Shown in pieces: positions 6,241 through 44,027 of a DNA stretch of 64,000 nucleotides (positions are counted from its first letter, which is position 1; each line of letters opens with the position of its first letter). The stretch is from an uncultured bacterium. GTDB lineage: Bacteria > Oederibacteriota > Muellerivitia > Muellerivitales > Muellerivitaceae. The notes under the pieces are model-generated. The model searched no databases. It was not told the origin of the DNA and saw only the letters and a list, made by a program, of their open reading frames with translations. Position numbers and translations under genes: made by a program. The DNA lies in the NCBI GenBank assembly GCA_964392085.1, contig CAYMOV010000002.1, positions 27,314 to 91,313 of the forward strand, read 5' to 3'.

Positions 6241-6451
6241 GTATCCCCAATTGGTCAGGCCCTTTTCGGGTGGAAATGACACCCATGGCCGGGCTATCAT
6301 TCTTGACGAATTTCATGTTTCGACGAAGTGCGCTCAAACCCCCCCGGGGGAGTCGGAACGTCGAGTCAAAATAGGAAAGGCCACACCTAAATTGGAAACC
6401 GAAACCAACAACGAACCCCTAGAGTCTATGGAAGCCCTCGGAGAGGGCGAG

Positions 6452-14623: not shown

Positions 14624-15023
14624 CTTCCAAAATTCGATTTCCCCGATATTCAACTATCTGGATCCCAATGCGGAAATGCCCAAGGCTCCTCATTCCTTGT
14701 CCTTTAAATTGAAAAAGCCTGAAATGTTCTGCTGGTTATGGCGTGACTGATTACTGCGTCCCTGGAATCATTGAGGGTGTTTTGTAATAACCGAATGAAT
14801 TTACGGCGGGTCATAGGTGGACTCCGATGGGGTTGGGATTTTAAGCAATGGCTATTGTTCAAGGAGACCCCTGGGGCCCATAGGGGCTGGAACAGTGGGG
14901 CCGGGCAGGGGTCCTAGGGGGTGGAGCGGGGCCTCATTCCAGGCGCTTTCTGCTTCTAGGGGGCCCCAAGGGTGGGTATACTGGCCCACGAAACCACCAT
15001 CCTTGGGGGCGCAAAGACCCATC

Positions 15024-18020: not shown

Positions 18021-19762
18021 ACAAACCGAACCTTCCGAAAGCCATGATGAGGGCGTTCCTTTTCCTGCTCGCAGTCGCCCTCCTCCAGTCCGGACGGCTA
18101 TCGGCGGCTGACCAGATCTCCCAGCCGGCACCCCCGGAGTCGGCCCCAGAGGCGGCGCCGGAGGCGCCGGCCGCCGCGCCGGCCGAGAAGGCGCCTCCCG
18201 CCGCGCGCCCCACGGCCCAACCCCAATTCACCCTGCCCGAAGTGGTCATCACCGGGGACAACCAGCTCACGATCGGGGCCCAGCGGTTGGATCTCCGGGA
18301 GGACGACGTGACCCTCGGTTCCAAGGACCTCCGCGGGCTCAACCGGGCCTCCGACGACCTGCCGGGGCTCGACCAGTCCAGGACCGGTGTTTCCGCCCTC
18401 TCGCCGGAACCCCCGCGCGATACGGTGGGTATCCTGCACCTGGGCGCGGGCCTCAAAAAAAGCCTGGAGGGTTGGGGCTTGTTCGGGCACCAAGACAAGG
18501 CATTCCAAATCCTGCTTAAGGGCTTCGGCGACCGGTACGGGGGAGAAGTCGCGGGGCCGGGCCGAACCGCCTCGGACAGCTTGGGATGGGGCGCCGTGCT
18601 CCAAGCGCAACCTACCGACCGGCTGAAGTTCCATTTCTCACGCCAATTCGAGCAGACCCACCATGACCTGCCTTGGCAGTCCGGCGGGGAAAACCGGAAA
18701 CCCGTGGATCTCGACGGAAGCGCGGCCTGGAGCTTCGCGTCCGACTGGACCCTGTCCTTGAAGGGCGCCGCTTCCGATACCCGTGTGGACGCGGCCGATC
18801 CCTTGATCCCTCCGGTCACTGCCCGGGAACGGCGGGGTAGCGCCCGGGTCGAATATGAGGGCCCGTCCTGGGCCGAATCCCTTTGGGCCGAGGGCGGGGT
18901 GAAGACCTCCCGGATCGACCTGGCCCCGCCGGTCCTGTCGGCCTACGACGACTCTTGGGCCAAAATCGGGACGCGCTTGCGGCCCTCGAACAAGCTGGGT
19001 CTTACTGCATCCTGGGGATTCACCCGGTTCGCGAAACTGGACTTGCCGGACCGGGGGGAACCCTCGGTGGAACTCGAGTTCCTGCCCCTGGAGGCGACCC
19101 GGGTCCGGATCCATTGGAAAAGCGCCCGCTCACTGCCTTCGTTCCGCGACCTTGAAGGGGAGGCCTTCACCACTTTGCCCGTCAACGGCCTTCCGGTCCC
19201 CGGATGGATCCGGGATGAAATCGGGGGGGATCTCACGCACCGCTGGGGGGACCGTTTGACGGCCACCCTCGGGGGGCGGGCCTGGTGGGAGGAGAACCGT
19301 TCCCAATGGGAGGAGTCCTCGCTCCTCGAGAACCGCCAGGTCCTGGAATCCTTGGGGCTGGTCCGGCTTTGGGAAGGGACCGCGGGCCTGGAGTGGACGC
19401 CGCTCCCTTCCCTCGTGGCCCGGGCCGACCTGCGGTACGGTGAGGCCCAAGACCGCTCCGGGACCGACCTGCGGGTCACCGGTTGGGCCAGGCAACAGGC
19501 CCAGTTCAGCGTCGGCCACAGTCGGCCGGGCGCGTCCACCCGCCTCTTCGTCATGGCGTCGGGACGCCGGGAGGGGGATTCCTCGAACCCGGTTCCCTTG
19601 TCACCTTACTGGACCTTGGGTTTGGAGACCCGGCGGGATTTGGGCGGTCACGTGACGCTTTGGGGCCGGGCGGACAACCTGACGGGCCAGCGGTACGAGA
19701 TCCGGCCGGGCTATCCCGAGCCGAGGTTCCTCGCGCGGGTCGGGTTGGAAGTTGTTTTTTAA
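18017..19762 (+). CDS. Outer-membrane beta-barrel protein (TonB-dependent-receptor-like or porin-like), C-terminal Phe
   Basis: Signal peptide MMRAFLFLLAVALLQSGRLSAA. Pro/Ala-rich linker. Alternating amphipathic beta-strand pattern. Ends ...RVGLEVVF, a typical OMP C-terminal signature. Confidence 0.6.
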   Translation: MNKPNLPKAMMRAFLFLLAVALLQSGRLSAADQISQPAPPESAPEAAPEAPAAAPAEKAPPAARPTAQPQFTLPEVVITGDNQLTIGAQRLDLREDDVTLGSKDLRGLNRASDDLPGLDQSRTGVSALSPEPPRDTVGILHLGAGLKKSLEGWGLFGHQDKAFQILLKGFGDRYGGEVAGPGRTASDSLGWGAVLQAQPTDRLKFHFSRQFEQTHHDLPWQSGGENRKPVDLDGSAAWSFASDWTLSLKGAASDTRVDAADPLIPPVTARERRGSARVEYEGPSWAESLWAEGGVKTSRIDLAPPVLSAYDDSWAKIGTRLRPSNKLGLTASWGFTRFAKLDLPDRGEPSVELEFLPLEATRVRIHWKSARSLPSFRDLEGEAFTTLPVNGLPVPGWIRDEIGGDLTHRWGDRLTATLGGRAWWEENRSQWEESSLLENRQVLESLGLVRLWEGTAGLEWTPLPSLVARADLRYGEAQDRSGTDLRVTGWARQQAQFSVGHSRPGASTRLFVMASGRREGDSSNPVPLSPYWTLGLETRRDLGGHVTLWGRADNLTGQRYEIRPGYPEPRFLARVGLEVVF

Positions 19763-19847
19763 AACCATTTAACACAGGGACCACCGAGTGCACAGGGACG
19801 GCGGTCGACTCTTAGATTGAAGAGCAAGCAACTTACGGAGGGGTTTC

Positions 19848-20462
19848 ATGACGCACGAATTCTCGCTGTTGCAGGTCATGCTCAAGGGGGGATGGGTCAT
19901 CGGTTTCCTCCTGATCCTCTCCGTCCTGGCATTGGCCATCCTGATCGACCGCTGGCGGGCTTTCGCCCGTTCGGGCCGGGACCGGGGGGAATTGATGAAG
20001 TCCGTGGAGCCATTCTGGAAAAAGAACCCCCAGGAGGCCGCGGCCTCCTGTGAGCGGGACGGCAGTGTCCCGGCCCTGGCCCTGGCGGCCGGGTTAAGGG
20101 CCAAGAAGGACGGCACCGGGGACCCGCGAGGCGCCATGGACCGCGAGGCCAAGGCCCGTTTGATGGACCTAGAGACCCGGTTGCCCCTGTTGGGAACCCT
20201 CGGGAACCTGGCCCCCTACATCGGCTTGTTCGGCACTGTCCTGGGGATCATCCGCGCCTTCCGTGACCTCTCCCTGGCCAACGCCGGGGGCGCCGCCGTG
20301 GTGAGCCAGGGGATCGCCGAGGCCCTGGTGGCCACCGCCTCGGGCCTTTTCGTGGCGGTCCTGGCCAGCGCGGGGTTCAATTACTTCCAATCCCGGCTGG
20401 ATGTCCTGGCCCGCGAGACCGAACTGGTGATCGACGAGGCCGCCGAAAAACTCCAGGACTGA
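19848..20462 (+). CDS. exbB: MotA/TolQ/ExbB proton-channel family protein
   Basis: Three TM segments and the conserved LGTLGNLAPYIGLFGTVLGII...AIAEALVATASGL block of TolQ/ExbB. RBS GGAGGGG upstream. Confidence 0.85.
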   Translation: MTHEFSLLQVMLKGGWVIGFLLILSVLALAILIDRWRAFARSGRDRGELMKSVEPFWKKNPQEAAASCERDGSVPALALAAGLRAKKDGTGDPRGAMDREAKARLMDLETRLPLLGTLGNLAPYIGLFGTVLGIIRAFRDLSLANAGGAAVVSQGIAEALVATASGLFVAVLASAGFNYFQSRLDVLARETELVIDEAAEKLQD

Positions 20463-20492
20463 CCTTTTCGCCGTGATTCCCCGGGAGGCAAG

Positions 20493-20978
20493 ATGGAAAA
20501 CCGATTGAGGCACAAGACCAAGCTCATCACCGACATCAACATGGTGCCCTTCACCGACGTGGTGCTGGTGCTGTTGGTGATCTTCATGGTGACCACCCCT
20601 TTCCTGTTCCAGGGCGACTTCCAGGTGAGCTTGCCCAAGGTGGCGGCCCCGAACCCCAATATCCCCGAGGCCCTGACGCTCACGGTCGCCCAGGGTGGCC
20701 GGTTGGCGTTGAACGGCCAGGAGATCAAGTTCGAGGAACTGGCCGAGAAGATCGGGGTTTTGATGAAGCAGAACCCCAACCAACAAGTGGTCATCGAGGC
20801 CGACAGCGGGGTGTCCCACGGGACCGTCATGGGCGTCATGGGGGAAGCCTACGCGGCCGGGGTGACGAAGATGGGCATCGCGGTGGAGCAAAGCCACGGA
20901 TCGGTCGTGGAGCAGAACCCAAGCCCCGCAGGGGCGCAGAATCCAGGCGCCGCCGTGGCGCCCGTCACGGCGAAGTAA
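20493..20978 (+). CDS. exbD: ExbD/TolR biopolymer transport protein
   Basis: INMVPFTDVVLVLLVIFMVTTPF TM motif with the conserved Asp, plus a periplasmic domain. 161 aa. Confidence 0.85.
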   Translation: MENRLRHKTKLITDINMVPFTDVVLVLLVIFMVTTPFLFQGDFQVSLPKVAAPNPNIPEALTLTVAQGGRLALNGQEIKFEELAEKIGVLMKQNPNQQVVIEADSGVSHGTVMGVMGEAYAAGVTKMGIAVEQSHGSVVEQNPSPAGAQNPGAAVAPVTAK

Positions 20979-21021
20979 AGGGTAGCTGATCCGGGAACTT
21001 AAACCGGGAAAGGAGGCGGCC

Positions 21022-21795
21022 ATGGACAAGAACTTCGGACAGTCGTTCCTCATCTCGCTCGGCGTCCACCTGGCCCTGTTCCTGGTCCTTTTCGGGGTCC
21101 TGGGGACCTTCCTCGTGGCCCGGACGCCTGCCTTCATGGAACTCACCCTCATCGGCATCAGTTCCCGCGGCGACGGGCCCGGCGCCCAACAGACCCTGCG
21201 GGGCGAGACCTCCGTTTCGCCGGAGGCCGCCGACCCCGGAAAAGGGGACACCTTCTCAAGCCCCAAGGTGAAGTCCGACCTGAAACAGCAGGCCGCTCCG
21301 AAGGCAGGGGACCTCGCGGTCAAGCGGCCTACGCCCTCAACCGCCCAGACCAGCAAGTCCGACCAATCGGCCTACCTCCAGGCCCTTCACCAATCGGCGC
21401 CCATCGGGATTTCCCCGAAGCGGGCCGTGCCCGACAGCATCAAGACCACCGCGGGGCTGGGCTATGGAGGCGTGACGGGCACCCCCAACGGCCGGGTGGA
21501 CATTGAGGGCGAACTGGCGGCCCGGGGCATCCAACGGAAGGTCGTGCCCGCCTACCCCGATTGGGCCAAGAAGCAGGGCGTCGAGGGGACCATCCAATAC
21601 CGGGTCACGGTGCTCCCGAACGGGTACCTGCGCGACGACGTCCAATTGGAGCAGACCAGCGGGTGGCGTGAACTGGACCGACAGGCTTATGAGGCCCTGC
21701 TCCAATGGGAGTTTGACCCCCTGCCCTCCGCCATGCCCCAGGTCAACCAATCGGGGTTGGTGACCTTCAACTTCAGCTTCAAGAACCAACCGTGA
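21022..21795 (+). CDS. tonB: TonB/TolA-like energy transducer (N-terminal TM anchor, Pro/Ser-rich linker, TonB C-terminal domain)
   Basis: N-terminal TM LISLGVHLALFLVLF. C-terminal domain with PAYPDWAKKQGVEGTIQYRVTVLPNG...V, typical of the TonB_C fold. Confidence 0.7.
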   Translation: MDKNFGQSFLISLGVHLALFLVLFGVLGTFLVARTPAFMELTLIGISSRGDGPGAQQTLRGETSVSPEAADPGKGDTFSSPKVKSDLKQQAAPKAGDLAVKRPTPSTAQTSKSDQSAYLQALHQSAPIGISPKRAVPDSIKTTAGLGYGGVTGTPNGRVDIEGELAARGIQRKVVPAYPDWAKKQGVEGTIQYRVTVLPNGYLRDDVQLEQTSGWRELDRQAYEALLQWEFDPLPSAMPQVNQSGLVTFNFSFKNQP

Positions 21796-23894
21796 GAGCC
21801 CGCGGGTTCTTGGCCTTGTCGTTCCTGGCGGCCTGGGCCCTGGGCCTCCAATTGGTCGCCCCGGGCCTCATGGCGGGGGATTCCCCCGAATTGGCGGCCT
21901 CGGCCTACGGTTGGGGAATCTCCCACCCTCCCGGTTATCCCCTTTGGACCCTGTTGGCCCACCTCGCCGGTTCCATCCCCTTGGGATGCCCCGCCTTCCG
22001 GACGAACCTCGTCTCCCTTTTCCCGACCGCCCTCGCGACTGCGGCCTTGGGGTTCCTCCTGGCCCGCCGGACCGGTGGGGGCGCCCTCGGGGAATGGGTG
22101 GGTTACGGGACGGCTTTTTTCATCGGGACGGGTCCCTTGTTCCTGGACCAAGCCACCGGCACCGAAGTCTACGGTCTCCATGGGTTGATCCTGACGGGCC
22201 TCCTGGCCCTCACCCTGGAAATTTCCTCCGAGCGTTTTTACGCCGTGATGTTCCTCGTGGGGCTCGGCGTGGCCCACCACCACCTACTGCTCCTCTTCCT
22301 GCCGGCGATCGGTTGGGCCTACCGGGATTTCCTGCGAAGACCCTCCTTCCTCCTGAGGGGGATGTCGCTCGTAGGTTTGGGCCTCTCGCTTTATTTGCTC
22401 CTGCCCATCCGGGCGTTGGCCCATCCGGCGGCGGATTGGAGCCGTCCCGATACCTGGACCCAATTTTGGAGCCACGTGAGCCGAAACCAATACGGCGGGG
22501 ATCTCCAAAGCGGGGCCTTCCTCCACGCCCTTTGGAACGCTTTGTTTTTTTGGAAGGACATCCTACGGGACGGTTGGTTCTTGGCGGGGATCCTCGCGTC
22601 CTGGGGGATCTGGACCCGGCGGAAAGCCTGGAGGGGTGAAATCCCGATCGCCTTAGGCCTGGCGGGTTTGGGCCTGGGCCTGCCGTTGCTCCTTCGGGTA
22701 CATCCCGATCCCCAAAACAACTCGGTCATGGAGGCCTTTTTCCCCCCGATGATGATCTGGGGATCCCCTTGGGTGGCGGTAGGGCTCCAGGGGCTATCCG
22801 CGCGGATGTCACGACCCTGGGTCCGGACGGTCGGGGCCCTCCTGCTCACCGGATTATTGGCCGCGCGGGTTGGCTCCGCCCTTTTTGTCTCGAGCCAATC
22901 CCGAAACCTCGCCTGCGAGGACATGGGCCGCAACTTCCTCTTGAACCTGCCCCGGGGCGCGGCTCTCTACAGCGAGGGTGATACGGCCACGTTTCCATTG
23001 GCTTACCTAAAGCAGGTAATGGGTCTCCGGCCCGACGCCGAGGTTTTCGACCGGACCGGTGGGCTGTTCGGCGATTTTTACGGCTTGCTCGATGTCGGGG
23101 GGACTGGGTCGGAGGATCCGACGGTTATGGTCCGAAAGGAACGGGGCCGCGAGTCTTCCCATCCAAGCCAATCCATCTTTTACAGCGAGAAGGAGACTGC
23201 TCCCGGCAGGACCCTGGCCCCAGCCGGGTTCCTCTTCCAGGCGACTGACTCGGGCGCGCCCTCCTGGGACGAGTCCAAGTTTTGGCCGAGGGCCCGGGAG
23301 CCCCGGGCGGGTTTGGCCCAGGACTTCCTCAGCCGGGAAACCGGCGCCCGGTTCTACGTCTTCCGCGCCCTGGCGGGGCTCCGGGGCAAAGCCCCCCTGG
23401 GGAAGATCCGGGACGACTTCGCCGGGACGGCGCGTTTGGCCTGGGACAATACCCGTGTCCTGAATAACGTGGGGATGGAAACCCTCAGGGCGGGATGGGT
23501 GGACGGGAGCCTTCCGTATTTTGAAGGCGCCGTGGAGCAGGATCCGGACTTCACCCTGGGCTGGTACAACCAGGGAATCGTCGCGCGGCAACAGGGTCGG
23601 ACCCGGGACGCGGTCCAGTTCTTCCAAAGGGCGCTCCAGGCGGACCCGGCCTACAGCCCGGCGCGGGACAGTTGGGCGATCCTCCTCTACAACAACGGCC
23701 ATCCCCCGGAGGCCGTGGACCAATGGCAGAGGCTCCTGGAACTCGATCCGTCCTACGCCCCGGGGTACCGGAACCTGGGTTTCGCACTCGCCACCCAGGA
23801 CGTGACGATGTCCAAACAACTCCTGGCCCGGTACCTCCAAATAAACCCGGGTGCCCCTGAACGGGCCCAGGTCGAGGCTTTGTTGAACCATTGA
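21792..23894 (+). CDS. Polytopic membrane protein of the DUF2723/TMEM260-like (GT-C-fold-like) family with C-terminal TPR repeats
   Basis: N-terminal motif AGDSPELAASAYGWGISHPPGYPLWTLL matches the D-x-GE-(L/F)-x-x-A-x-x-LG-x-x-HPPG-YPL signature of DUF2723. 8-10 predicted TM helices, then TPR-like repeats (WYNQGIVARQQGR..., AYSPARDSWAILLYNNGH...). Start overlaps the tonB stop. Confidence 0.55.
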   Translation: MRARGFLALSFLAAWALGLQLVAPGLMAGDSPELAASAYGWGISHPPGYPLWTLLAHLAGSIPLGCPAFRTNLVSLFPTALATAALGFLLARRTGGGALGEWVGYGTAFFIGTGPLFLDQATGTEVYGLHGLILTGLLALTLEISSERFYAVMFLVGLGVAHHHLLLLFLPAIGWAYRDFLRRPSFLLRGMSLVGLGLSLYLLLPIRALAHPAADWSRPDTWTQFWSHVSRNQYGGDLQSGAFLHALWNALFFWKDILRDGWFLAGILASWGIWTRRKAWRGEIPIALGLAGLGLGLPLLLRVHPDPQNNSVMEAFFPPMMIWGSPWVAVGLQGLSARMSRPWVRTVGALLLTGLLAARVGSALFVSSQSRNLACEDMGRNFLLNLPRGAALYSEGDTATFPLAYLKQVMGLRPDAEVFDRTGGLFGDFYGLLDVGGTGSEDPTVMVRKERGRESSHPSQSIFYSEKETAPGRTLAPAGFLFQATDSGAPSWDESKFWPRAREPRAGLAQDFLSRETGARFYVFRALAGLRGKAPLGKIRDDFAGTARLAWDNTRVLNNVGMETLRAGWVDGSLPYFEGAVEQDPDFTLGWYNQGIVARQQGRTRDAVQFFQRALQADPAYSPARDSWAILLYNNGHPPEAVDQWQRLLELDPSYAPGYRNLGFALATQDVTMSKQLLARYLQINPGAPERAQVEALLNH

Positions 23895-23983: not shown

Positions 23984-24922
23984 ATGGCGAGATTGGCGGG
24001 GGTATTCGCGAACGAGGGCGCCCAAAACGTGGGCATGGGCAAGGAATTCTACGACAAGTCCCTGACCGCCCGGAAATACTTCGATGACGCCGAGAAGATC
24101 CTGGAACTGAAGGTCGCCAAGCTTTGCTTCCTCGGCCCCAAGGAGGAGCAGGACCTCACCCCGAACGCCCATTACGCCACGTTTGTCTGCGGCGTGGCGG
24201 CCTGGGAACTCCTGGTGGCCAACAAACGGCGCGCCGAGGTGGTGACGGGGGCCGGGGTTGGCGAGATCGCCGCCCTGACGGCCGCCGAATGCCTGCCCTA
24301 CGGGGCCGCCTTGAATTTCATCTACAAACGCGCCCAATGGATCGACGCGAAGGTGGGCCCGGACAAGGGCCGGTCGCTCATGGTCCAGGGGATCCCCACG
24401 GAGAGGCTGTCGGGGGCCCTCTCCCGGGAGGAAGGTGAGCTCCACCTGACCCACCGGTTGGCCCCTGACGTCCAGGTGGTGTGGGGCCCGCGGGAGGCGG
24501 CGGAATCCCTCGAGCTGGAATTGCAAGGCGCACCCGGCGTGAAGGTTACGTCCGCCACCACCCGGGGGCCGCTCCACACGCCCTTGGCGGCCGCCTGGGA
24601 AGCCGACCTGGAGGCCCTCCTGACGGCCTGCCTGGCGGGCGCCCCCCTCAAGAACCCGAAGGCCACCGTCCACCGGGTCTCCGACGGGGAATACGTGGGG
24701 ACCCCCGAGGGTATCCGGGACATCCTGATCCGGCAGTATTCAAGACCGGTGGACTGGACCCAAACGGTGTCCGTCCTGACGGGCCGGGGGTACCGGACTT
24801 TCGTGGAGATGGGACCGGGGAAGGTCTACACCACCCTCGTCAAACGCATCGACAGCAACACCCGGGTGGCCAACGTGGAGGACGTGAAGTCGCTATCGGT
24901 GGCCCTGAAGGTGACTTCCTGA
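23984..24922 (+). CDS. FabD-like (malonyl-CoA:ACP transacylase fold) protein with degenerate active site
   Basis: Collinear with FabD: GVFANEGAQNVGM vs FVFPGQGSQTVGM, GAGVGEIAAL vs GHSLGEYSAL (nucleophilic Ser replaced by Gly), VEMGPGKVYTTLVKRI vs YEVGPGKVLTGLTKRI. No fab or acp neighbours. Confidence 0.6.
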   Translation: MARLAGVFANEGAQNVGMGKEFYDKSLTARKYFDDAEKILELKVAKLCFLGPKEEQDLTPNAHYATFVCGVAAWELLVANKRRAEVVTGAGVGEIAALTAAECLPYGAALNFIYKRAQWIDAKVGPDKGRSLMVQGIPTERLSGALSREEGELHLTHRLAPDVQVVWGPREAAESLELELQGAPGVKVTSATTRGPLHTPLAAAWEADLEALLTACLAGAPLKNPKATVHRVSDGEYVGTPEGIRDILIRQYSRPVDWTQTVSVLTGRGYRTFVEMGPGKVYTTLVKRIDSNTRVANVEDVKSLSVALKVTS

Positions 24923-24929
24923 GGACCGA

Positions 24930-25574
24930 ATGAAATTGCCCGTCCAAACCAGTTATTCCCGAGCCGGTCAATCCTCGTTTGGGACCCGGCGCCTTCGTCT
25001 CCTGGCCTTGGCCTTTGGGATCCTCGGGGTGTTCGGTTACGGCCCGGTCCCGGATCGGACCGCCGTTCCCGAGCCGCCGCCCCCCCCGACGGCGACTTCG
25101 ACCGACAGCCCCGCCTCGACCCCCACGGGGACCCTCACGCCGCCCCCCAGTCCCACCCCCACGGGTTCCCCGACGGCCACGCCCGTGATCGTATTGCCGG
25201 TTTACCTGGAACCGACCGAAACGGCGACGCCGGTGGTGCCGGTCCCCACCCAAGAGTTGGACGACGTGGGGCCTGTCCCGACGCTGCCCGAACTGTCGGT
25301 CTTCCCGAATCCCGCCCAGGATAAGAACGTTTATTTCCGCTTCAGGTCCCCGGAGGATTGGAAGGTGGTGGTGCGTATCTTCGATTCCTACGGCGACGAG
25401 GCGGCCCGCCTCGATCAGGAAGGCAAGGACACCTTCGACCTCCCATGGGCCTTGGGCAAGATCGAGTCGGGCATCTATTACTACCGGATCACCGCGGAGC
25501 ACTTGGCGTCCGGACGGATCCTGCGGTACCCCGTGGGCCGGTTCGTCGTGGACCGCATCAAGACCCGCAAATAG
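24930..25574 (+). CDS. Small secreted protein with Pro/Thr-rich linker and a Por/T9SS-type C-terminal beta-sandwich (FlgD-Ig-like) domain
   Basis: Signal peptide RRLRLLALAFGILGV. PPPPPTATSTDSPASTPTGTLTPPPSPTPTGSPTATP linker. C-terminal LSVFPNPAQDKNVYFRF...GIYYYRI resembles the T9SS sorting-domain consensus. Confidence 0.5.
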   Translation: MKLPVQTSYSRAGQSSFGTRRLRLLALAFGILGVFGYGPVPDRTAVPEPPPPPTATSTDSPASTPTGTLTPPPSPTPTGSPTATPVIVLPVYLEPTETATPVVPVPTQELDDVGPVPTLPELSVFPNPAQDKNVYFRFRSPEDWKVVVRIFDSYGDEAARLDQEGKDTFDLPWALGKIESGIYYYRITAEHLASGRILRYPVGRFVVDRIKTRK

Positions 25575-25649
25575 GGACGCCGGGACCGGGAAGGACTTTC
25601 CGTCGCTCGGGACCTGTTTTTCCCTTATGATGATCGGGGTTCTCCAAAC

Positions 25650-27173
25650 ATGAACGAAAAACCGCCTGAAATCCTGATCGTGGGCCGGCCCAACGTGGGC
25701 AAGTCCACCCTTTTCAACCGTTTCCTGGGCAAACCCATGGCCCTGGTGGACGACCGCCCCGGCACGACCCGTGACCTCAAGAGCGGTGAAGTCGAATGGG
25801 GAGGCCGGCTGTTCCAGGTGACCGATTCCGGCGGCTGGCTGCCGGGGGATGTCGAGGACCGAATCGCGGGCCAAGTGGGCCGGCTGATCGATGAGAAAAG
25901 CCGCGAAGCCGACCTCCTGCTCTTCCTGGTCGACGGCCAACAGGGCCTGACCCCGATGGACCAAAGCCTCGCCCGCTACCTGCACCAGCAGGGCGGCCGG
26001 GTGATCCTGGTCATCAACAAGGCCGACCGCCAGGAGGATGAGACGCCGTTCATGTCCGACTTCTCCCAACTGGGGTTCGAGGACGTCGTCTCCCTGTCCG
26101 CCATGCACGGCCTGGGCACGGATACCCTTTTGGACCTGCTCTGCGAACGGCTCCCCGTCACCCGGCTCGATCCGGAGGGGGAGGATTCCCAAAAGCCCTT
26201 CAAGATCGCGGTGGTGGGGAAACCCAACGTGGGGAAGTCCTCGCTCCTAAACGCCTTGATCGGGAAGAACCTCCTGGTCGTGGACAACACCCCTGGGACC
26301 ACCCATGATTCCATCGCCGTGGTCCTCGAGCAGGGTGAACGGGACCTCGTGGCGGTGGACACCGCCGGCATCCGGGCGCCCAAACAGGTCGAATCCCGGG
26401 TGGAGAAGATCTCAATCGACCAGGCGCTGTACGAGATCCAGACCTGCCAAGTGGTGCTCTTCATCCTGGACGGGGAATTGGGCATGGCCCACCAGGACGT
26501 GACCTTGGCTCGGATGCTCCAGGAGGCCTTCCGGCCCGTGGTCATTGTGGTGAACAAGTGGGACATCCACCCGCCCGGCGCGGAACAGGCTTGGGCCGAG
26601 AAGAATGCCCGCCACACCCTCCGTTCCCTACGGTTCGCCCCGATCGTCTTCATTTCCGCCAAGACCAAGAAAAACTTGGAAAAAGTGGTGCCCCTGGCGA
26701 AGCAGGTCTATGAGGAAAGCTGCCGGAGGATCTCCACGGCGAAATTCAACCTGGCCCTCCGGGACGCCGTCAGCCGCCAAGCCCCGCCGTTCCGGCGGGG
26801 CAACCGTCTCCGCCCACTCTATGGTTTCCAGCGGTTGGGGCACCCTCCGGCCTTTGAGATCTTCGCCAACCATCCCGAATCGGTGGTTCCTTCGTATTTA
26901 AGGTTCCTGGAGGAGTCCCTTCGGACGTCGTTCGACCTCCGAAACACCCCGCTTCAACTGGTGTTCAAGGCCAAGTCCCCCAATCCCAAGCGCCCCCGCA
27001 AACCCCATTACGTGAAGACCGAGAGATCCGGCCGGACCGCCCATCCGGACCCGGAGGTGCGGCCCAAAAGTCCCGGCGGTCCCCGGGTGGAGTCGTCCGG
27101 GGTCCCGAAGACGAAGAGAGAACGCCGGAAGCGCAGCGCCCGCCCGGGCTACCGGGGAGGCCGGCCGCGATGA
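25650..27173 (+). CDS. der: Ribosome-biogenesis GTPase Der (EngA) with a basic C-terminal extension
   Basis: Two GTPase domains (GRPNVGKSTLFNR and GKPNVGKSSLLNAL), a KH-like domain, and about 70 extra C-terminal residues rich in K/R/P. Stop overlaps the plsY start. Confidence 0.9.
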   Translation: MNEKPPEILIVGRPNVGKSTLFNRFLGKPMALVDDRPGTTRDLKSGEVEWGGRLFQVTDSGGWLPGDVEDRIAGQVGRLIDEKSREADLLLFLVDGQQGLTPMDQSLARYLHQQGGRVILVINKADRQEDETPFMSDFSQLGFEDVVSLSAMHGLGTDTLLDLLCERLPVTRLDPEGEDSQKPFKIAVVGKPNVGKSSLLNALIGKNLLVVDNTPGTTHDSIAVVLEQGERDLVAVDTAGIRAPKQVESRVEKISIDQALYEIQTCQVVLFILDGELGMAHQDVTLARMLQEAFRPVVIVVNKWDIHPPGAEQAWAEKNARHTLRSLRFAPIVFISAKTKKNLEKVVPLAKQVYEESCRRISTAKFNLALRDAVSRQAPPFRRGNRLRPLYGFQRLGHPPAFEIFANHPESVVPSYLRFLEESLRTSFDLRNTPLQLVFKAKSPNPKRPRKPHYVKTERSGRTAHPDPEVRPKSPGGPRVESSGVPKTKRERRKRSARPGYRGGRPR

Positions 27174-27820
27174 ACCAAAATTTCATCTTTTGGTTCGTCA
27201 TCCTCTGGTCATACTTTTGGGGTTCCATCCCGACGGGGTACTGGTTGATGAAGTTCGGCAAGGACGTCGATATCCGCCGCCAAGGGAGCGGCAATATCGG
27301 CATGACCAACGTTTGGAGGTTCGCCGGGGCGAAGTGGGGGATCGCCACCCTGATCCTGGATATCCTCAAGGGCGTCGTGGCGGTCTGGATGGCCGGGAAA
27401 CTGGACCCCGTTAACCGCGGGACGATGGTTCTTGCCGGGCTTTTCGTGATCATCGGGAACCTGTTTCCGATCTTCCTCCGGTTCAAGGGCGGGAAGGGAG
27501 TCGGGACGAGCATCGGGGTCTTTTACACCCTGTTGCCGATCCCCAGCCTGATCGGGACGGCCTTTTTCGGGCTCGTGATTTGGAGGTGGAAGATGGTGTC
27601 CGCCGCGAGCCTCGCCGGCGTCACGGCCATGGCCCTCGCGTCCTGTTATTTCCTGGGCGCCGACCAGGTGGAGCCCCATTTGGCCCTCTTGGTCTGCCTT
27701 TTGGTCTGGTACGGCCACCGCGCCAACCTGCTTCGCCTGTTGGCCGGCACCGAACGGAGAATCGGGTCCACGCCGCCTTCGGCCGCGCCGGAACCTCCCG
27801 GGAAGGACCAACCCGCATGA
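27170..27820 (+). CDS. plsY: Glycerol-3-phosphate acyltransferase PlsY
   Basis: GSIPTGYWLMK...QGSGNIGMTNVWR...RFKGGKGVGTS motifs. 216 aa. Confidence 0.9.
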   Translation: MNQNFIFWFVILWSYFWGSIPTGYWLMKFGKDVDIRRQGSGNIGMTNVWRFAGAKWGIATLILDILKGVVAVWMAGKLDPVNRGTMVLAGLFVIIGNLFPIFLRFKGGKGVGTSIGVFYTLLPIPSLIGTAFFGLVIWRWKMVSAASLAGVTAMALASCYFLGADQVEPHLALLVCLLVWYGHRANLLRLLAGTERRIGSTPPSAAPEPPGKDQPA

Positions 27821-28818
27821 AAACCGCGGTCCTGGGGGCGGGAAGTTGGGGGATGACCCTGGCGGTCCATCTCCAACGGGTCGGTCATGGGGTGCGTCTA
27901 TGGGAAATCGACCCGACCCGCGCGGGACGCCTCCAGGCGGAACGTGTGGATCGGGTGATCCTGCCGGGTTTGACCTTGCCGCCTCCCATCGAGGTGTCGT
28001 CCGACCTCGCCCAGGTTTTGGGGGGGGTCGGCGCCGTGGTTTTCGTGGTCCCATCGCACCACATGCGGTCCTCAGCCCGACGGGCCGCGTTATCCTGGCC
28101 GGGGGGGGCCTTCGCGGTCAACGCCGCGAAAGGTTTGGAGGAGGGAAGCCTCCGGCGCATGGATGAGGTGTTGGCGGAGGAACTCCCGAAAGGAACCTCC
28201 CTCGGGGTCCTTTCGGGACCCAGCCACGCCGAGGAGGTGGCCGAACTCCACCCCACGGCGCTGGTCGCGGCGGCCCGTGAGAAGGCCGAAGCGGCCCGGA
28301 TCCAGGATCTTTTCCATGGTGATCCCCTCCGGATCTACACCTCCTCCGATCTTGTGGGGGTGGGTTTGGGAGGGAGCCTGAAAAACGTCATCGCCCTCGC
28401 CGCGGGGGTCCTCGATGGCCTGGGACTGGGGGACAACACCAAGGCCGCCCTCATGACCCGGGGCCTCCATGAGATCACCCGGTTGGGAGTCGCCTTGGGC
28501 GCCGCCCCGGAAACCTTCGCGGGGTTGGCGGGCATGGGGGACCTGTTCGTCACCTGCATGAGCCGTCACAGCCGTAACCGCCTCCTCGGGGAGAAGATCG
28601 GCAAGGGTTTGACCTTGGAGGCCGCCCTGGGCCAAATGGTCATGGTGGCCGAGGGCGTCAAGACGGCCCGAGCCGCGCGGGACCTCGCCCACGGTGTCCG
28701 GGTCGAGGTACCGATCGTGGAGCAGGTTTGCCGGGTCCTTTTCGAAGGGGTGCCGGCCCGGGAGGCCGTCAGGGCCCTCATGGCCCGGGACGCCAAGCCC
28801 GAGACCGGGGAACCCTGA
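27817..28818 (+). CDS. gpsA: NAD(P)H-dependent glycerol-3-phosphate dehydrogenase
   Basis: MKTAVLGAGSWGMTLAVHL Rossmann motif. ATGA overlap with the plsY stop. The ORF is open further upstream (27580) but homology starts at 27817. Confidence 0.85.
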   Translation: MKTAVLGAGSWGMTLAVHLQRVGHGVRLWEIDPTRAGRLQAERVDRVILPGLTLPPPIEVSSDLAQVLGGVGAVVFVVPSHHMRSSARRAALSWPGGAFAVNAAKGLEEGSLRRMDEVLAEELPKGTSLGVLSGPSHAEEVAELHPTALVAAAREKAEAARIQDLFHGDPLRIYTSSDLVGVGLGGSLKNVIALAAGVLDGLGLGDNTKAALMTRGLHEITRLGVALGAAPETFAGLAGMGDLFVTCMSRHSRNRLLGEKIGKGLTLEAALGQMVMVAEGVKTARAARDLAHGVRVEVPIVEQVCRVLFEGVPAREAVRALMARDAKPETGEP

Positions 28819-29849: not shown

Positions 29850-29925
<76 letters not shown>

Positions 29926-30015
29926 AGAAGCCAGATCTGTAGGAAGTTTGGGTCAAACCCGACCAAGATGCCAGAAATGGATGGGCGGGATCACCCCGAC
30001 CCAGAAGCTAGATTT
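29926..30015 (+). repeat. Three tandem degenerate copies of the tRNA-Pro 3' end plus trailer (CCCGACCAAGAAGCCAGATCT-like)
   Basis: CACCCCGACCAAGAAGCCAGATCTG, then CAAACCCGACCAAGATGCCAGAAATGG, then CACCCCGACCCAGAAGCTAGATTTAATGG. The 5' leader AGATCTGGCTTCTTGG is the exact reverse complement of the trailer. Confidence 0.7.
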
Positions 30016-30067
30016 AATGGGGAGAAAAAGCCGGTTCGTTCAAGCCGTCAAATGGTCGGTGACAATT

Positions 30068-30144
30068 CGGGGCGTGGCGCAGCCTGGTAGCGCAATTGCA
30101 TGGGGTGCAAGAGGTCGCAGGTTCAAATCCTGCCGCCCCGACCA
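30068..30144 (+). tRNA. tRNA-Pro: tRNA-Pro (anticodon GGG)
   Basis: Acceptor CGGGGCG/CGCCCCG, D-arm GCGC-AGCCTGGTA-GCGC, anticodon loop ATGGGGT, T-arm GCAGG-TTCAAAT-CCTGC, encoded CCA. Confidence 0.8.
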
Positions 30145-37474: not shown

Positions 37475-37551
37475 GCCCTCGTAGCTCAGATGGATAGAGC
37501 GACCCTTTCCTAAAGGGTAGGCCACGTGTTCGACTCACGTCGAGGGTACCA
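37475..37551 (+). tRNA. tRNA-Arg: tRNA-Arg (anticodon CCU)
   Basis: Acceptor GCCCTCG/CGAGGGT, D-arm GCTC-AGATGGATA-GAGC, anticodon arm ACCCT-TTCCTAA-AGGGT, T-arm ACGTG-TTCGACT-CACGT, encoded CCA. Confidence 0.8.
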
Positions 37552-41147: not shown

Positions 41148-41459
41148 GAAGGCCTCAAGTTAAACTTTAACGCAATGAATATGATTGGGCATTTAGGGGC
41201 TTTTAGGGTTAGTCGACCCCGGGGATCCCCTATGAGATTAGAAATGTTTGGAAAACCGGGCCTTTCAACGGTGAATCGGGGTCCTAAACGAAACCTTTTC
41301 AATAAAACCAACATTTTTGAGGGGCTGAGCAGGTGCAGACCTGCGACTGCCTTGGAGAACTTCGTTTGAGGTCCTGGTCCAACCAGTCCGTTTTGAAACG
41401 CGAAAGGACCGCATTGAGCAAATGAGACGGTACATGCACGTGTTGCTGATGAGAAACAA

Positions 41460-41483
41460 TCGTTCAAAAAAACAGCATTTAAA
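41460..41483 (-). promoter_or_regulatory. Copy A of the bipartite motif (minus-strand reading CCGTTTTTGCATTTAAATG-CTGTTTT-TTTGAACGA), about 300 bp upstream of the minus-strand aminotransferase gene
   Basis: Read directly. Contains the perfect 12-bp palindrome GCATTTAAATGC. Same half-sites and 7-nt spacer as copies B, C and D. Confidence 0.5.
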
Positions 41484-41604
41484 TGCAAAAACGGCCTATC
41501 TGAGTGACCTAAACGGAGTAAGCACCTGAGGAGCCTCAAGGGTTGGACCCAATTGGCTTTAATGCACCTGAAAAATCTATAGTTAAGGTTGTGGTTATAA
41601 AGGT

Positions 41605-42678: not shown

Positions 42679-42780
42679 GGCTCATTTGGAGGCGTGGAGT
42701 CACAGGATTCCGTTCGATGGGTCCTTGAAGGTTCTTTTCATCTCCGAGCCGGTTCACCTGGAAAAAAACCTAAATTAAGC

Positions 42781-42814
42781 CGAATTTGCGTTTAAATGTC
42801 GTTTATTTGAACGA
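42781..42814 (+). promoter_or_regulatory. Copy B of the bipartite motif (CGAATTTGCG-TTTAAATG-TCGTTTA-TTTGAACGA), about 100 bp from the integrase start codon
   Basis: Read directly. Shares a 16-nt identical stretch CGAATTTGCGTTTAAA with copy C. Confidence 0.5.
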
Positions 42815-43904: not shown

Positions 43905-43938
43905 CGAATTTGCGTTTAAAGGGCCGAAATTTCAACGA
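43905..43938 (+). promoter_or_regulatory. Copy C of the bipartite motif (CGAATTTGCG-TTTAAAGG-GCCGAAA-TTTCAACGA)
   Basis: Read directly. Same architecture and spacing as copies A, B and D. Confidence 0.5.
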
Positions 43939-44027
43939 CCGATCGGTGGGATGAAGCCGAGGACGCTTCCTGATTTCGCTTCGGATCGGTCCTATTTGGG
44001 ATCCTCCCGTGGCGGATGAGAGTCGAT

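What the first reader, a model, noticed from the sequence alone, without database searches (positions are those of the whole stretch)
23984..24922. FabD-like paralog lacking the catalytic serine (GHSLGE replaced by GAGVGE) beside the DUF2723 gene
The protein is collinear with malonyl-CoA:ACP transacylase over its full length (GPGKV...L.KRI block conserved). However, the nucleophilic Ser of GHSLG is Gly, and the PGQGSQ oxyanion motif is ANEGAQ. It is isolated from any fab or acp genes and sits between the Exb/DUF2723 operon and a T9SS-CTD-like secreted protein. It is likely a non-catalytic or repurposed acyltransferase-fold protein.
Basis: partly seen in the sequence, partly recalled or inferred. 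Interest (0 to 1): 0.5.

Follow-up and report, generated by a model that had tools for sequence, protein, structure and literature searches.

The report
FabD-fold protein without catalytic serine
This gene encodes a well-conserved copy of the fatty-acid enzyme FabD that has lost the serine and, in most relatives, the histidine it needs for its normal reaction, yet it is kept under strong selection in every sampled genome of the uncultured phylum FCPU426, so it must now do something else.

Summary
ORF 23984-24922 (+) encodes a 312-aa protein with a complete FabD (malonyl-CoA:ACP transacylase) fold: AF2 pLDDT 92 and TM about 0.9 to solved FabDs. Gly replaces the nucleophilic Ser (GHSLGE becomes GAGVGE), and FANEGAQ replaces FPGQGSQ.

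This is a discrete family, not a one-off. Among 66 distinct members, Ser92 is Gly in 66/66, His91 is V/I/A in 66/66, His201 is Phe in 58/66, and Gln11 is Glu in 64/64. Arg117, Gln250 and most ACP-docking Lys/Arg residues are kept. New invariant residues appear (N10, E11, R194, Y282).

dN/dS is 0.03-0.10. The former active-site positions are as conserved as in real FabDs. An exhaustive profile search finds no intermediates (557 bits, then at most 197).

All 26 species-level genomes carrying the family belong to candidate phylum FCPU426. The gene always heads a block of FabD-like gene, (T9SS-tail protein), der, plsY, gpsA, downstream of an ExbB/ExbD/TonB cluster. The DUF2723 neighbour is present in only about half.

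It cannot be a ping-pong transacylase. Most likely it is a repurposed protein that binds ACP or an anionic acyl ligand, or a new enzyme.

I could not test whether a canonical fabD exists elsewhere in these genomes.

The parts
23984..24922 (+). FabD-fold gene (called FabD* here), 312 aa, lacking the Ser nucleophile
   Evidence: ORF and codon-position GC. Pfam PF00698 40 bits; TIGR00128 132.9 bits vs cutoff 260.9. End-to-end alignment to FabD structures. AF2 pLDDT 92; Foldseek TM 0.89-0.91 to FabDs.
24005..24025 (+). N-terminal motif F-A-N-E-G-A-Q replacing FPGQGSQ (Gly10 to Asn, Gln11 to Glu)
   Evidence: Coordinates checked. Family counts: N 64/64 and E 64/64; canonical G and Q 17/17.
24245..24268 (+). 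Former nucleophile elbow T-G-A-G-V-G-E-I (canonical A-G-H-S-L-G-E-Y); Gly91 sits at the Ser92 position
   Evidence: Gly 66/66 at the Ser position; V/I/A 66/66 at the His91 position.
24329..24331 (+). Arg116, equivalent to FabD Arg117 (binds the malonyl carboxylate, or sulfate, in E. coli FabD); retained
   Evidence: Arg 66/66 in the family. Role of Arg117 taken from bioRxiv 10.1101/2020.05.15.098798.
24449..24469 (+). T156-H-R-L-A-P-D162: remodelled floor of the phosphopantetheine groove (canonical N160, N162, Q166 region)
   Evidence: N160 to H/Q, N162 to L/M, G165 to D/E, Q166 to T and others; T156 invariant 66/66. Role of N160/N162/Q166.
24560..24580 (+). Loop T-R194-G-P-L-H198-T (canonical V-S-V-P-S-H201-C): new invariant Arg194. 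His198 is kept in the window's clade only.
   Evidence: R 66/66 at the S197 position. H201 position is F in 58, H in 7, Y in 1.
24812..24853 (+). G-P-G-K280-V-Y282-T-T-L-V-K287-R288-I-D: retained basic ACP/CoA-docking residues (E. coli K279, K286, R287) plus the family-specific Tyr282
   Evidence: K/R at K279 in 62/66, at K286 in 66/66, at R287 in 66/66; Y282 in 65/66. Docking roles.
24930..25574 (+). Small secreted protein: signal peptide, Pro/Thr-rich linker, T9SS type A sorting domain. It starts 7 nt after the FabD* stop.
   Evidence: Pfam Por_Secre_tail 23.6 bits (below cutoff 27) and TIGR04183 23.4 bits (cutoff 23). Present downstream of FabD* in most FCPU426 loci, at 0-70 nt. No homologue was detected downstream in L022, L026, L027 and L029.
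25650..27173 (+). der (engA), ribosome-assembly GTPase
   Evidence: Two MMR_HSR1 domains plus the KH-like domain. Conserved downstream of FabD* in every locus long enough to show it.
27170..27820 (+). plsY (acyl-phosphate:glycerol-3-phosphate acyltransferase); its ATG overlaps the der stop (ATGA)
   Evidence: PF02660 162 bits. Overlap seen. Synteny.
27817..28818 (+). gpsA (NAD(P)H glycerol-3-phosphate dehydrogenase); its ATG overlaps the plsY stop (ATGA)
   Evidence: PF01210, PF07479 and PF20618. Start at 27817 checked. Synteny.
19848..23894 (+). Upstream block exbB (19848-20462), exbD (20493-20978), tonB-like (21022-21795), TMEM260-like/DUF2723 + TPR (21792-23894). It is separated from FabD* by 89 nt.
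   Evidence: The Ton genes are upstream of FabD* in most FCPU426 loci. DUF2723 is present in about half; elsewhere TonB abuts FabD* directly or 2-4 kb of other genes intervene.

Best explanation
The gene encodes a member of a discrete family of FabD-fold proteins, found here only in genomes of candidate phylum FCPU426, that has been repurposed.

Shown. The protein has the full two-subdomain FabD fold. The Ser92 nucleophile is Gly in every member, and His201 is Phe in most. The protein therefore cannot form the malonyl-enzyme intermediate of the ping-pong malonyl-CoA:ACP transacylase reaction. The gene is under strong purifying selection. The former active-site positions stay as conserved as in true FabDs but carry a new residue set (N10, E11, G91, R194, L197, F/H198, Y282). 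Arg117, Gln250 and the basic ACP/CoA-docking residues K279, K286, R287 and R190 are kept. The gene always opens a tightly packed block: FabD*, (T9SS-tail protein), der, plsY, gpsA.

Inferred. The old gorge is still the working site. It still binds an anionic ligand through the retained Arg: a malonyl or acyl thioester on ACP, or a phosphate or carboxylate head group. ACP still docks on the retained Lys/Arg patch. The protein acts without covalent catalysis, as a binding or regulatory partner that links the acyl-ACP or malonyl pool to PlsY-dependent phospholipid initiation. Less likely, it is a new non-covalent enzyme in that pocket.
For: Fold: AF2 pLDDT 92, pTM 0.91. Foldseek gives TM 0.85-0.91 and rmsd 2.0-3.0 A to 15 or more solved FabDs.

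Loss of catalytic residues, counted over 66 distinct sequences: S92 to G 66/66; H91 to V/I/A 66/66; H201 to F 58, H 7, Y 1; Q11 to E 64/64; G10 to N 64/64; N160, N162 and Q166 replaced.

Retained: R117 66/66; Q250 66/66; K/R at K279 62/66, K286 66/66, R287 66/66, R190 62/66. The roles of these residues in E. coli FabD come from bioRxiv 10.1101/2020.05.15.098798.

Selection: dN/dS is 0.03-0.10 for the pairs with dS at or below 1. Nearly all members are exactly 312 aa.

Pocket still constrained: mean entropy of 25 active-site positions is 0.69, against 1.23 for the rest (permutation p = 0.0008). In canonical FabDs the same positions score 0.68. Nineteen family-specific near-invariant residues are listed.

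Discrete family: 223-695 bits within the family, then 132 bits for the best canonical FabD. An exhaustive hmmsearch of 1.84 billion representatives gives 557.7 bits for the family representative, and at most 197 bits for any other full-length single-domain protein.

Lineage and synteny: 26 species-representative genomes carry the family. Most are titled candidate division FCPU426. The rest are titled uncultured or unclassified bacterium (8), proteobacterium (4) or Candidatus Firestonebacteria (1), but share the family and the synteny. The order TonB cluster, FabD*, (CTD protein), Der, PlsY, GpsA, HU, MerR is conserved. The FabD*-to-next-gene gap is 0-70 nt. There are ATGA overlaps at der/plsY and plsY/gpsA.
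Against: No ligand, partner or activity was tested, so the binding or regulatory role is inference.

The whole 20-kb region is syntenic across the phylum. Adjacency to der-plsY-gpsA may therefore reflect general genome conservation rather than functional coupling.

The phosphopantetheine-groove residues N160, N162 and Q166, and the region-3 ACP contacts K189, L192 and I136, are all replaced. This weakens the case for canonical ACP or CoA binding.

Glu11 could simply salt-bridge Arg116 and close the pocket.

Invariant new polar residues (E11, R194, T156, Y282) fit a new enzyme at least as well as a binding protein.

The list of 25 active-site positions is recalled from the PKS acyltransferase literature (Yadav et al. 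2003) and was not re-derived from coordinates here.
Confidence: 0.5

Rival explanations
1. It is a new enzyme using the remodelled gorge without a covalent intermediate. Candidates are a Glu11-assisted thioesterase or decarboxylase acting on malonyl- or acyl-ACP, or a PlsX-like acyl-ACP:phosphate acyltransferase. In the PlsX-like case, phosphate held by Arg116 and Arg194 would attack the thioester and produce the acyl-phosphate that the PlsY encoded downstream consumes.
For: New invariant charged or polar residues sit at former active-site positions (E11, R194, T156, Y282), together with the retained R116 and Q251. Pocket conservation equals that of true enzymes. The elbow backbone G-x-G-x-G-E is kept, so the oxyanion-hole amides could persist. 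E. coli FabD binds sulfate at Arg117. ACP-docking Lys/Arg residues are kept. plsY, gpsA and (18 kb upstream) plsC lie in the same region, but no plsX was found in the window or in 30 related loci.
Against: No activity data exist. plsX normally sits in the fab cluster, not beside plsY, so its absence from this region says nothing about the genome. The synteny may be incidental. No precedent is known to me for such chemistry on this fold.
Confidence: 0.2
2. The function has nothing to do with lipid synthesis. The fold has been recruited as a structural or adaptor subunit, for example with the ribosome-assembly GTPase Der or with the envelope Ton/Tol-T9SS genes. Its position beside plsY and gpsA is only inherited gene order.
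For: The whole block from rpsA to merR is collinear across the phylum, so adjacency is weak evidence. Many family-specific invariant residues are charged and lie outside the gorge positions (R30, E37, K43, R82, E102, E206, K226), as expected for a new protein interface. Human MCAT is found bound in a mitochondrial small-subunit assembly intermediate (PDB 8csp). The gene is usually coupled within 0-70 nt to a secreted T9SS-tail protein.
Against: The old gorge positions remain the most conserved part of the protein. The carboxylate-binding Arg and the ACP-docking basic residues are invariant or nearly so. A pure scaffold would not need either. The T9SS-tail gene is missing in deep-branching members (L026, L027, L029).
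Confidence: 0.2
3. It is still the cell's malonyl-CoA:ACP transacylase, the only fabD of the genome, working with another nucleophile or by direct transfer.
For: It is annotated as ACP S-malonyltransferase by source pipelines. No other fabD was seen in the DNA I could reach. Arg117 and Gln250 are kept.
Against: Ser92 is Gly in 66/66 members, and His201 is Phe in 58/66. No alternative invariant Ser or Cys sits in the elbow. S253 is present in only 61/66. C216 lies in an inserted helix segment away from the dyad positions. CoA and ACP use the same groove in FabD, so a ternary direct transfer is sterically unlikely. The TIGR00128 score is half the cutoff. The DNA examined covers only a few percent of any one genome, so failing to see a second fabD carries no weight.
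Confidence: 0.03
4. It is a decaying pseudogene or a sequencing or assembly artefact.
For: Catalytic residues are lost.
Against: There are 66 distinct intact sequences, nearly all 312 aa, from independent assemblies (NCBI, ENA, JGI, Logan). dN/dS is 0.03-0.10. The AF2 model is confident.
Confidence: 0.01

Closest known systems
FabD / MCAT, malonyl-CoA:ACP transacylase (TIGR00128, EC 2.3.1.39; e.g. E. coli 1MLA, 2G2Z, 6U0J)
   Same: Same length, and the same alpha/beta-hydrolase-like plus ferredoxin-like two-subdomain fold (TM about 0.9). Collinear over the full length, with 23-34% identity. Arg117, Gln250, the G-x-x-x-G-E elbow backbone, the GPGK...KRID block and the basic docking residues K279, K286, R287 and R190 are retained.
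   Different: Ser92 is Gly, His91 is V/I/A, His201 is Phe in most members, Gln11 is Glu, and Gly10 is Asn. N160, N162 and Q166 of the phosphopantetheine groove are replaced. The protein scores half the equivalog cutoff. It does not sit in a fab/acp cluster.
MdcH, malonate decarboxylase epsilon subunit (TIGR03131)
   Same: Second-best curated model (125 bits); same fold and malonyl-binding Arg.
   Different: The score is far below the cutoff of 297.9. MdcH is a Ser-dependent transacylase. No mdc genes lie nearby.
AT-like domain of Thraustochytrium PUFA synthase subunit B (PMC8003026)
   Same: An acyltransferase-fold unit that does not complement fabD and has a different job (thioesterase). It is a precedent for repurposing of the fold.
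   Different: That domain keeps and needs its Ser96 and His220, and it is part of a megasynthase. FabD* is free-standing and lacks the Ser.
KSQ / chain-length-factor ketosynthases (nucleophile Cys replaced by Gln; e.g. GfsA KSQ, PDB 7VEE)
   Same: An analogy only. It is a lipid/polyketide enzyme fold whose nucleophile is replaced in a conserved way, giving a non-covalent activity (decarboxylation) or a partner role. This comes from general knowledge; the PDB entry appears.
   Different: A different fold and a different substitution. No decarboxylase evidence exists for FabD*.
Other free-standing Ser-less FabD-like proteins found here (P0175/P0190 with GAGAG / GVGPG; the P0191 cluster with GHGLG)
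   Same: Single-domain proteins of about 310-320 aa with the FabD fold signature and Gly at the Ser position. P0175 shares 9 of 19 FCPU426-family-specific residues.
   Different: They keep GQGSQ and His201 and lack R194 and Y282. P0175 sits in an unrelated context (transaldolase, then an Lpd-like oxidoreductase) in another organism. These are probably independent losses.
PlsX, phosphate:acyl-ACP acyltransferase (PF02504)
   Same: Relevant only under the novel reading. It would supply acyl-phosphate to the PlsY encoded in the same block, acting on acyl-ACP without a covalent enzyme intermediate.
   Different: An unrelated fold. No evidence of activity exists. The presence or absence of plsX in FCPU426 genomes was not determined.

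Membership tests
FabD / MCAT (NCBIfam TIGR00128 equivalog) | Whole-protein score at or above the curated cutoff (260.9 bits) | tested here: not met
   132.9 bits.
FabD / MCAT | Nucleophilic Ser in the GHSxG elbow (E. coli Ser92) | tested here: not met
   Gly91 in the window protein. Gly in 66/66 family members; canonical Ser 17/17.
FabD / MCAT | General-base His (E. coli His201) | tested here: inconclusive
   The window protein and its clade keep His198 (7/66). 58/66 have Phe and 1 has Tyr, so the residue is not required by the family.
FabD / MCAT | Gln11 in the FPGQGSQ motif (its backbone amide contributes to the oxyanion hole) | tested here: not met
   F-A/P-N-E-G-S/A-Q/H. Glu in 64/64 and Asn at Gly10 in 64/64. 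Whether the backbone amides still form an oxyanion hole cannot be told from sequence.
FabD / MCAT | Carboxylate-binding Arg (E. coli Arg117) and Gln250 | tested here: met
   Arg116 in 66/66 and Gln251 in 66/66.
FabD / MCAT | Two-subdomain fold (alpha/beta-hydrolase-like core plus ferredoxin-like lid) | tested here: met
   AF2 pLDDT 92. Foldseek TM 0.85-0.91 to FabD structures.
FabD / MCAT | ACP-docking residues (K279; K286/R287; K189/R190, L192, I136) | tested here: inconclusive
   Regions 1 and 2, and R190, are kept as K/R in 62-66 of 66. K189 is I/V/L, L192 is mostly N/T, and I136 is mostly S/T.
FabD / MCAT | Gene located in a fab/acp (plsX-fabH-fabD-fabG-acpP-fabF) cluster | tested here: not met
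   No FASII gene was found in the 64-kb window, in 10 kb upstream, in the short contig L041 past the downstream end, or in 30 related loci. This feature is usual for fabD but not obligatory.
FabD / MCAT | Malonyl-CoA:ACP transacylase activity | not testable with these tools
   Needs an enzyme assay or fabD(ts) complementation.
Pfam Acyl_transf_1 (PF00698) superfamily | Score above the gathering threshold (32.7 bits) | tested here: met
   40 bits, residues 7-289.
MdcH (TIGR03131) | Score at or above 297.9 bits, with neighbouring mdc genes | tested here: not met
   125 bits. No mdc genes in the window.
Trans-acting PKS acyltransferase | Embedded in or beside a PKS cluster (KS, ACP, KR domains) | tested here: not met
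   No PKS domains anywhere in the window or in the FCPU426 loci.
PlsX-type function (novel reading only) | Genomes with plsY lack a conventional plsX, and the protein makes acyl-phosphate from acyl-ACP | not tested
There is no plsX in the fetched DNA, but that is uninformative.

The most novel reading that the evidence does not exclude
FCPU426 bacteria have no conventional Ser-dependent FabD and/or no PlsX. On this reading the dyad-less FabD-fold protein is a working enzyme with a new, non-covalent mechanism. It would be either an acyl-ACP:phosphate acyltransferase that feeds the PlsY encoded downstream (a PlsX analogue using Arg116, Arg194 and Glu11), or a direct malonyl loader or decarboxylase. 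That would be a new catalytic solution on the acyltransferase fold at the entry to membrane lipid synthesis.
Probability: 0.08. Interest if true: 0.8.

Novelty: new variant of a known kind. Interest (0 to 1): 0.45.

Why it matters
FabD is a textbook essential enzyme with a very stable active site. Source pipelines label this protein 'ACP S-malonyltransferase', which is almost certainly wrong for the whole FCPU426 family.

A free-standing FabD fold has lost both catalytic residues yet keeps a constrained pocket, the carboxylate-binding Arg and the ACP-docking residues, across an entire phylum. That makes it a clean natural case of pseudo-enzyme or neo-enzyme evolution in core lipid metabolism.

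If it binds ACP or malonyl species, it could be a new type of regulator of phospholipid initiation. If it is catalytic, it would define new chemistry on the acyltransferase fold.

Practically, metabolic reconstructions of FCPU426 that count this gene as fabD would overstate the completeness of their fatty-acid pathway.

Tried and rejected
(1) I looked for a canonical fabD or other FASII genes in the same genomes.
- tblastn with plsX, fabH, fabD, fabG, acpP and fabF from a normal cluster (L036) against the window and 30 loci found only FabD* itself.
- Pfam annotation of the likely genes of at least 145 aa across the window found none.
- Extending the window contig upstream (L037) and downstream (L041; one search found nothing) gave none.
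- This covers only a few percent of any genome, so it is uninformative about presence elsewhere.

(2) I checked the best canonical hits to FabD*. P0053 and P0054 lie on assemblies (CDLCOG01, JAUVWU01) that are not among the FCPU426 assemblies.

(3) I used contig length as a fingerprint, looking for canonical FabDs whose longest contig equals a known FCPU426 contig length. There was no match. This test is weak, because only the best 120-150 hits are listed.

(4) I looked for sister lineages, to see whether a canonical fabD sits upstream of der there. The Der search shows FCPU426 is isolated (at least 51% identity inside the phylum, at most 44% outside), so there is no close outgroup to compare.

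(5) I looked for intermediate forms between FabD* and FabD. The exhaustive profile search found none. It did reveal other, apparently independent Ser-less FabD-like proteins.

(6) Literature searches for FCPU426 physiology and for Ser-less FabD homologues gave nothing relevant. FCPU426 papers are surveys, and 'FABD2' hits are plant actin markers.

(7) The AFDB Foldseek library was unavailable. Model coordinates are not exposed, so distances in the pocket could not be measured.

(8) The promoter and terminator scan of 19.5-29.8 kb was not above the shuffled background.

(9) Alternative nucleophiles considered and rejected: T88, S253 (61/66) and C216 (in a 4-residue insertion, 65/66). None is both invariant and at a dyad position.
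Full report
THE OBSERVATION

The ORF at 23984..24922 (+) is a genuine gene. It has an ATG start and encodes 312 aa. Its GC by codon position is 0.65/0.46/0.88, the pattern of the other real genes in this 62-66% GC window.

The product matches Pfam Acyl_transf_1 above threshold (40 vs 32.7 bits). It reaches only 132.9 bits on the NCBIfam fabD equivalog, whose cutoff is 260.9, and 125 bits on MdcH, whose cutoff is 297.9.

Against solved structures it aligns end to end with FabDs: 2cuy at 6e-29 and 3ezo at 1e-28, down to E. coli 1mla at 4e-19. In every alignment the canonical elbow G-H-S-L-G-E faces G89-A-G91-V-G-E94, and F-P-G-Q-G-S-Q faces F8-A-N-E-G-A-Q14.

An AlphaFold2 model built on 28 family sequences is confident (pLDDT 92, pTM 0.91). 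It superposes on FabD structures with TM 0.85-0.91 and rmsd 2.0-3.0 A.

No alignment shift can bring a Ser to the nucleophile position.

A DISCRETE, CONSERVED FAMILY

A search of 5.8 billion proteins returns about 50 clusters at 223-695 bits. They share 43-70% identity with the query, and nearly all are exactly 312 aa. The score then drops abruptly to 132 bits for ordinary FabDs.

An exhaustive hmmsearch of 1.84 billion representatives with the family profile gives 557.7 bits for the single family representative. Apart from two family fragments, no other single-domain protein exceeds 197 bits. The hits in between are giant PKSs whose several domains add up. There are no intermediates.

I pooled database members with genes translated from fetched loci, giving 66 distinct sequences, and mapped them to E. 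coli FabD numbering.

| E. coli FabD position | State in the 66 family members |
|---|---|
| Ser92 | Gly 66/66 |
| His91 | Val/Ile/Ala 66/66 |
| His201 | Phe 58, His 7 (the window's clade), Tyr 1 |
| Gln11 | Glu 64/64 |
| Gly10 | Asn 64/64 |
| Asn160 | His/Gln |
| Asn162 | Leu/Met |
| Gln166 | mostly Thr |
| Ser197 | Arg 66/66 |
| Leu281 | Tyr 65/66 |
| Arg117 | kept, 66/66 |
| Gln250 | kept, 66/66 |

The roles of Ser92-His201 (catalytic dyad), Arg117 (malonyl carboxylate, also a sulfate site), the Gln11 and Leu93 amides (oxyanion hole) and Asn160, Asn162 and Gln166 (floor of the phosphopantetheine groove) are those described for E. coli FabD in bioRxiv 10.1101/2020.05.15.098798.

The AcpP-docking residues defined in that paper are partly retained. 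K279 is K/R in 62/66, K286 in 66/66, R287 in 66/66 and R190 in 62/66. In contrast K189, L192 and I136 are replaced.

THE GENE IS FUNCTIONAL AND THE OLD POCKET IS STILL UNDER SELECTION

Pairwise dN/dS is 0.03-0.10 for the least saturated orthologue pairs.

I took 25 positions that line the acyltransferase active site. The list is recalled from Yadav et al. 2003. The 13 core residues read Q-Q-G-H-S-L-G-R-S-H-N-Q-V in E. coli, as expected. These positions have mean entropy 0.69 in the family against 1.23 for the remaining positions (permutation p = 0.0008). That is the same level as in canonical FabDs, which score 0.68.

The window protein's 13-residue signature is E-H-G-A-G-V-G-R-L-H-V-Q-V. Nineteen residues are near-invariant in the family and rare or absent in FabDs. 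Some lie in the gorge (N10, E11, G91, T156, R194, Y282). Others are charged positions elsewhere (E37, K43, R82, E102, E206, K226), and Cys216 sits in a 4-residue insertion.

This is the signature of a remodelled functional site, not of decay.

LINEAGE AND CONTEXT

A scan of one genome per GTDB species found the family in 26 MAGs. Most are titled 'candidate division FCPU426'. Four are labelled proteobacterium, eight are labelled uncultured or unclassified bacterium, and one is labelled Candidatus Firestonebacteria. They come mostly from peat, bog and soil, and their GC ranges from 31% to 63%.

Three further weak hits belong to a different protein, discussed below under other observations.

A search with the neighbouring Der GTPase shows the phylum is isolated: at least 51% identity inside and at most 44% outside. 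For Der, the best outside score is about 0.64 of a typical inside score. For FabD* the ratio is about 0.36. FabD* therefore diverged from FabDs much further than a normally evolving orthologue would.

Gene order is conserved across the phylum: (plsC, rpsA), a YbgF-like TPR protein, an unknown 581-aa protein, ExbB, ExbD, TonB, a variable segment, FabD*, a small secreted protein, Der, PlsY, GpsA, HU, MerR.

- The variable segment holds the TMEM260-like/DUF2723 gene in about half of the genomes. In some genomes it holds nothing (TonB abuts FabD* in L001, L025, L026-L029). In others it holds 2-4 kb of unrelated genes. The DUF2723 adjacency is therefore incidental, and a transcription-unit boundary probably lies just upstream of FabD*.
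- Downstream, the next gene starts 0-70 nt after the FabD* stop.
- In the window that gap is 7 nt. The der/plsY and plsY/gpsA junctions are ATGA overlaps.
- The small protein consists of a signal peptide, a Pro/Thr-rich linker and a T9SS type A sorting domain (TIGR04183, 23.4 vs cutoff 23).
- It is missing in deep-branching members, where der or other genes follow directly (L026, L027, L029).

No FASII gene (plsX, fabH, fabD, fabG, acpP, fabF) occurs in the window, its reachable extensions, or the 30 loci.

WHAT IT MOST LIKELY DOES

Shown: without Ser92, and mostly without His201, the protein cannot form the malonyl-O-Ser intermediate. It is therefore not a ping-pong malonyl-CoA:ACP transacylase. 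Because CoA and ACP occupy the same groove in FabD, a direct ternary transfer is also unlikely.

Inferred:
- The invariant Arg116 argues that the ligand is still anionic. Acyltransferases that use non-carboxylated substrates usually lose this Arg (general knowledge; see also the R117A data quoted).
- The retained Lys/Arg at the docking patch suggests ACP rather than CoA. R287, which stacks on the CoA adenine, is Lys in 59/66 members.
- The pocket has become more hydrophobic (V/I90, G91, L197, F198) while gaining Glu11 and Arg194.

I therefore favour a repurposed protein that uses the old gorge to bind a malonyl- or acyl-ACP species, or an anionic lipid precursor, without covalent catalysis. 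It would act as a binding or regulatory partner at the start of the der-plsY-gpsA unit (confidence about 0.5 for this layered statement).

The main rival is a new enzyme in the same pocket (0.2). It could be a thioesterase, a decarboxylase, or most attractively a PlsX-like acyl-ACP:phosphate acyltransferase feeding PlsY. A second rival is a role unrelated to lipids, with the synteny being merely inherited (0.2). 'Still the real FabD' (0.03) and 'pseudogene' (0.01) are effectively excluded by the residue counts and the selection data.

WHAT I COULD NOT SETTLE

It remains open.

Only about 20 kb per related genome, and about 74 kb of contiguous sequence plus a short downstream contig for the window organism, were reachable. 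Indirect attempts failed.

On general grounds a canonical fabD elsewhere is likely. The window suggests a diderm organism, with TonB/ExbBD, an outer-membrane efflux protein, AcrB and PlsC/PlsY, and such organisms normally need FASII. That expectation is not a result.

COMPARISON WITH KNOWN FAMILIES, AND NOVELTY

The protein is a member of the Acyl_transf_1 superfamily. It fails the defining tests of FabD (score, Ser, Gln11, context), of MdcH and of trans-AT PKS acyltransferases.

Repurposed AT-like units are known. One example is the thioesterase-like AT domain of a PUFA synthase, which still needs its Ser and His (PMC8003026). Nucleophile-substituted ketosynthases (KSQ, CLF) offer an analogy.

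My two literature searches found no described free-standing, phylum-wide, dyad-less FabD family. I rate it a new variant of a known kind, of moderate interest. It would be much higher if the census shows no other fabD or plsX.

OTHER OBSERVATIONS

- The profile search exposed other free-standing Ser-less FabD-like proteins outside FCPU426. P0175 and P0190 carry GAGAG and GVGPG. A nine-member cluster around P0191 carries GHGLG.
- P0175 sits in an unrelated context in another organism.
- Kiritimatiellia MAGs encode a 1485-aa PKS-like protein whose AT-like domain reads FPGEGSQ / GAGVGEIAALE / FHTPWF. It is followed by dehydratase and phosphopantetheinyl-transferase domains.
- Loss of the AT nucleophile with retention of the fold may therefore be more common than annotation suggests.

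Noticed in passing
P0175 (locus L042 10001-10933), P0190, P0191 cluster: These are other free-standing FabD-like proteins with Gly at the nucleophile position, from outside FCPU426. P0175 and P0190 read FGAGAGLYAAL and FGVGPGLYAAL and keep GQGSQ and His201. The P0191 cluster (9 members) reads GHGLGQ. P0175 lies after transaldolase and an Lpd-like oxidoreductase, in another organism from the same soil sample.
   Followed up: partly
L031 8660-13117 (also L033 about 5664-6680): Kiritimatiellia MAGs encode a 1485-aa PKS-like protein with a KS-AT linker, a Ser-less AT-like domain (FPGEGSQ, GAGVGEIAALE, FHTPWF), a PS-DH domain and a C-terminal 4'-phosphopantetheinyl transferase domain. Like FabD*, it combines Gln11 to Glu with Ser to Gly.
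   Followed up: partly
window 24930-25574 (+); L018 3050-5014: The gene right after FabD* encodes only a signal peptide, a Pro/Thr-rich linker and a T9SS type A sorting domain, with no cargo domain. In L018 the same C-terminal domain ends a 654-aa subtilase-like protein at the same position.
   Followed up: partly
window 14817-21795 (+): The 1067-aa TPR protein contains about 10 YbgF/CpoB-like repeats (TIGR02795, 285 bits). It is followed by an unannotated 581-aa protein and then ExbB, ExbD and TonB. The cluster may be Tol-Pal-like rather than a TonB uptake system. It is conserved across FCPU426.
   Followed up: partly
window 56647-58638 (-): A second TMEM260-like/DUF2723 + TPR paralogue (663 aa) lies next to mutL, so this family is multi-copy in the genome.
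   Followed up: no
window 9979-14523 (+): A 1514-aa ORF has no Pfam or NCBIfam hit. Its codon-position GC is atypical (0.45/0.59/0.63). It lies in a lower-GC stretch (0.56) with strong negative GC skew (-0.26). It is present in same-species contigs (L037, L038). It may be a large surface or repeat protein, or foreign DNA.
   Followed up: no
window 39990-44000: A tyrosine recombinase/integrase (41605-42678, -) sits beside a lower-GC stretch (0.55) with few confident ORFs. In other FCPU426 genomes (L001) the same aminotransferase-integrase pair is present, so it may be a Xer-type recombinase rather than a mobile element.
   Followed up: no
P0354 (JGI contig, 17.7 kb): One relative of the window clade has der and plsY called as a single 505-aa fusion (MMR_HSR1 plus G3P_acyltransf). 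This is plausible through loss of the ATGA overlap, but it may be a frameshift or a gene-calling artefact.
   Followed up: no
PDB 8csp_8 versus window 23984-27173: Human mitochondrial MCAT (a FabD homologue) is a component of a mitoribosomal small-subunit assembly intermediate. Here the FabD-like gene sits two genes upstream of the ribosome-assembly GTPase Der. This is a curiosity only, with no evidence of a link.
   Followed up: no
window 29850-30144 and 37475-37551: Two tRNA-Pro genes (CGG, GGG) lie 140 nt apart, and a tRNA-Arg (CCT) lies further on. Rfam at gathering threshold reports only the two tRNA-Pro genes.
   Followed up: no
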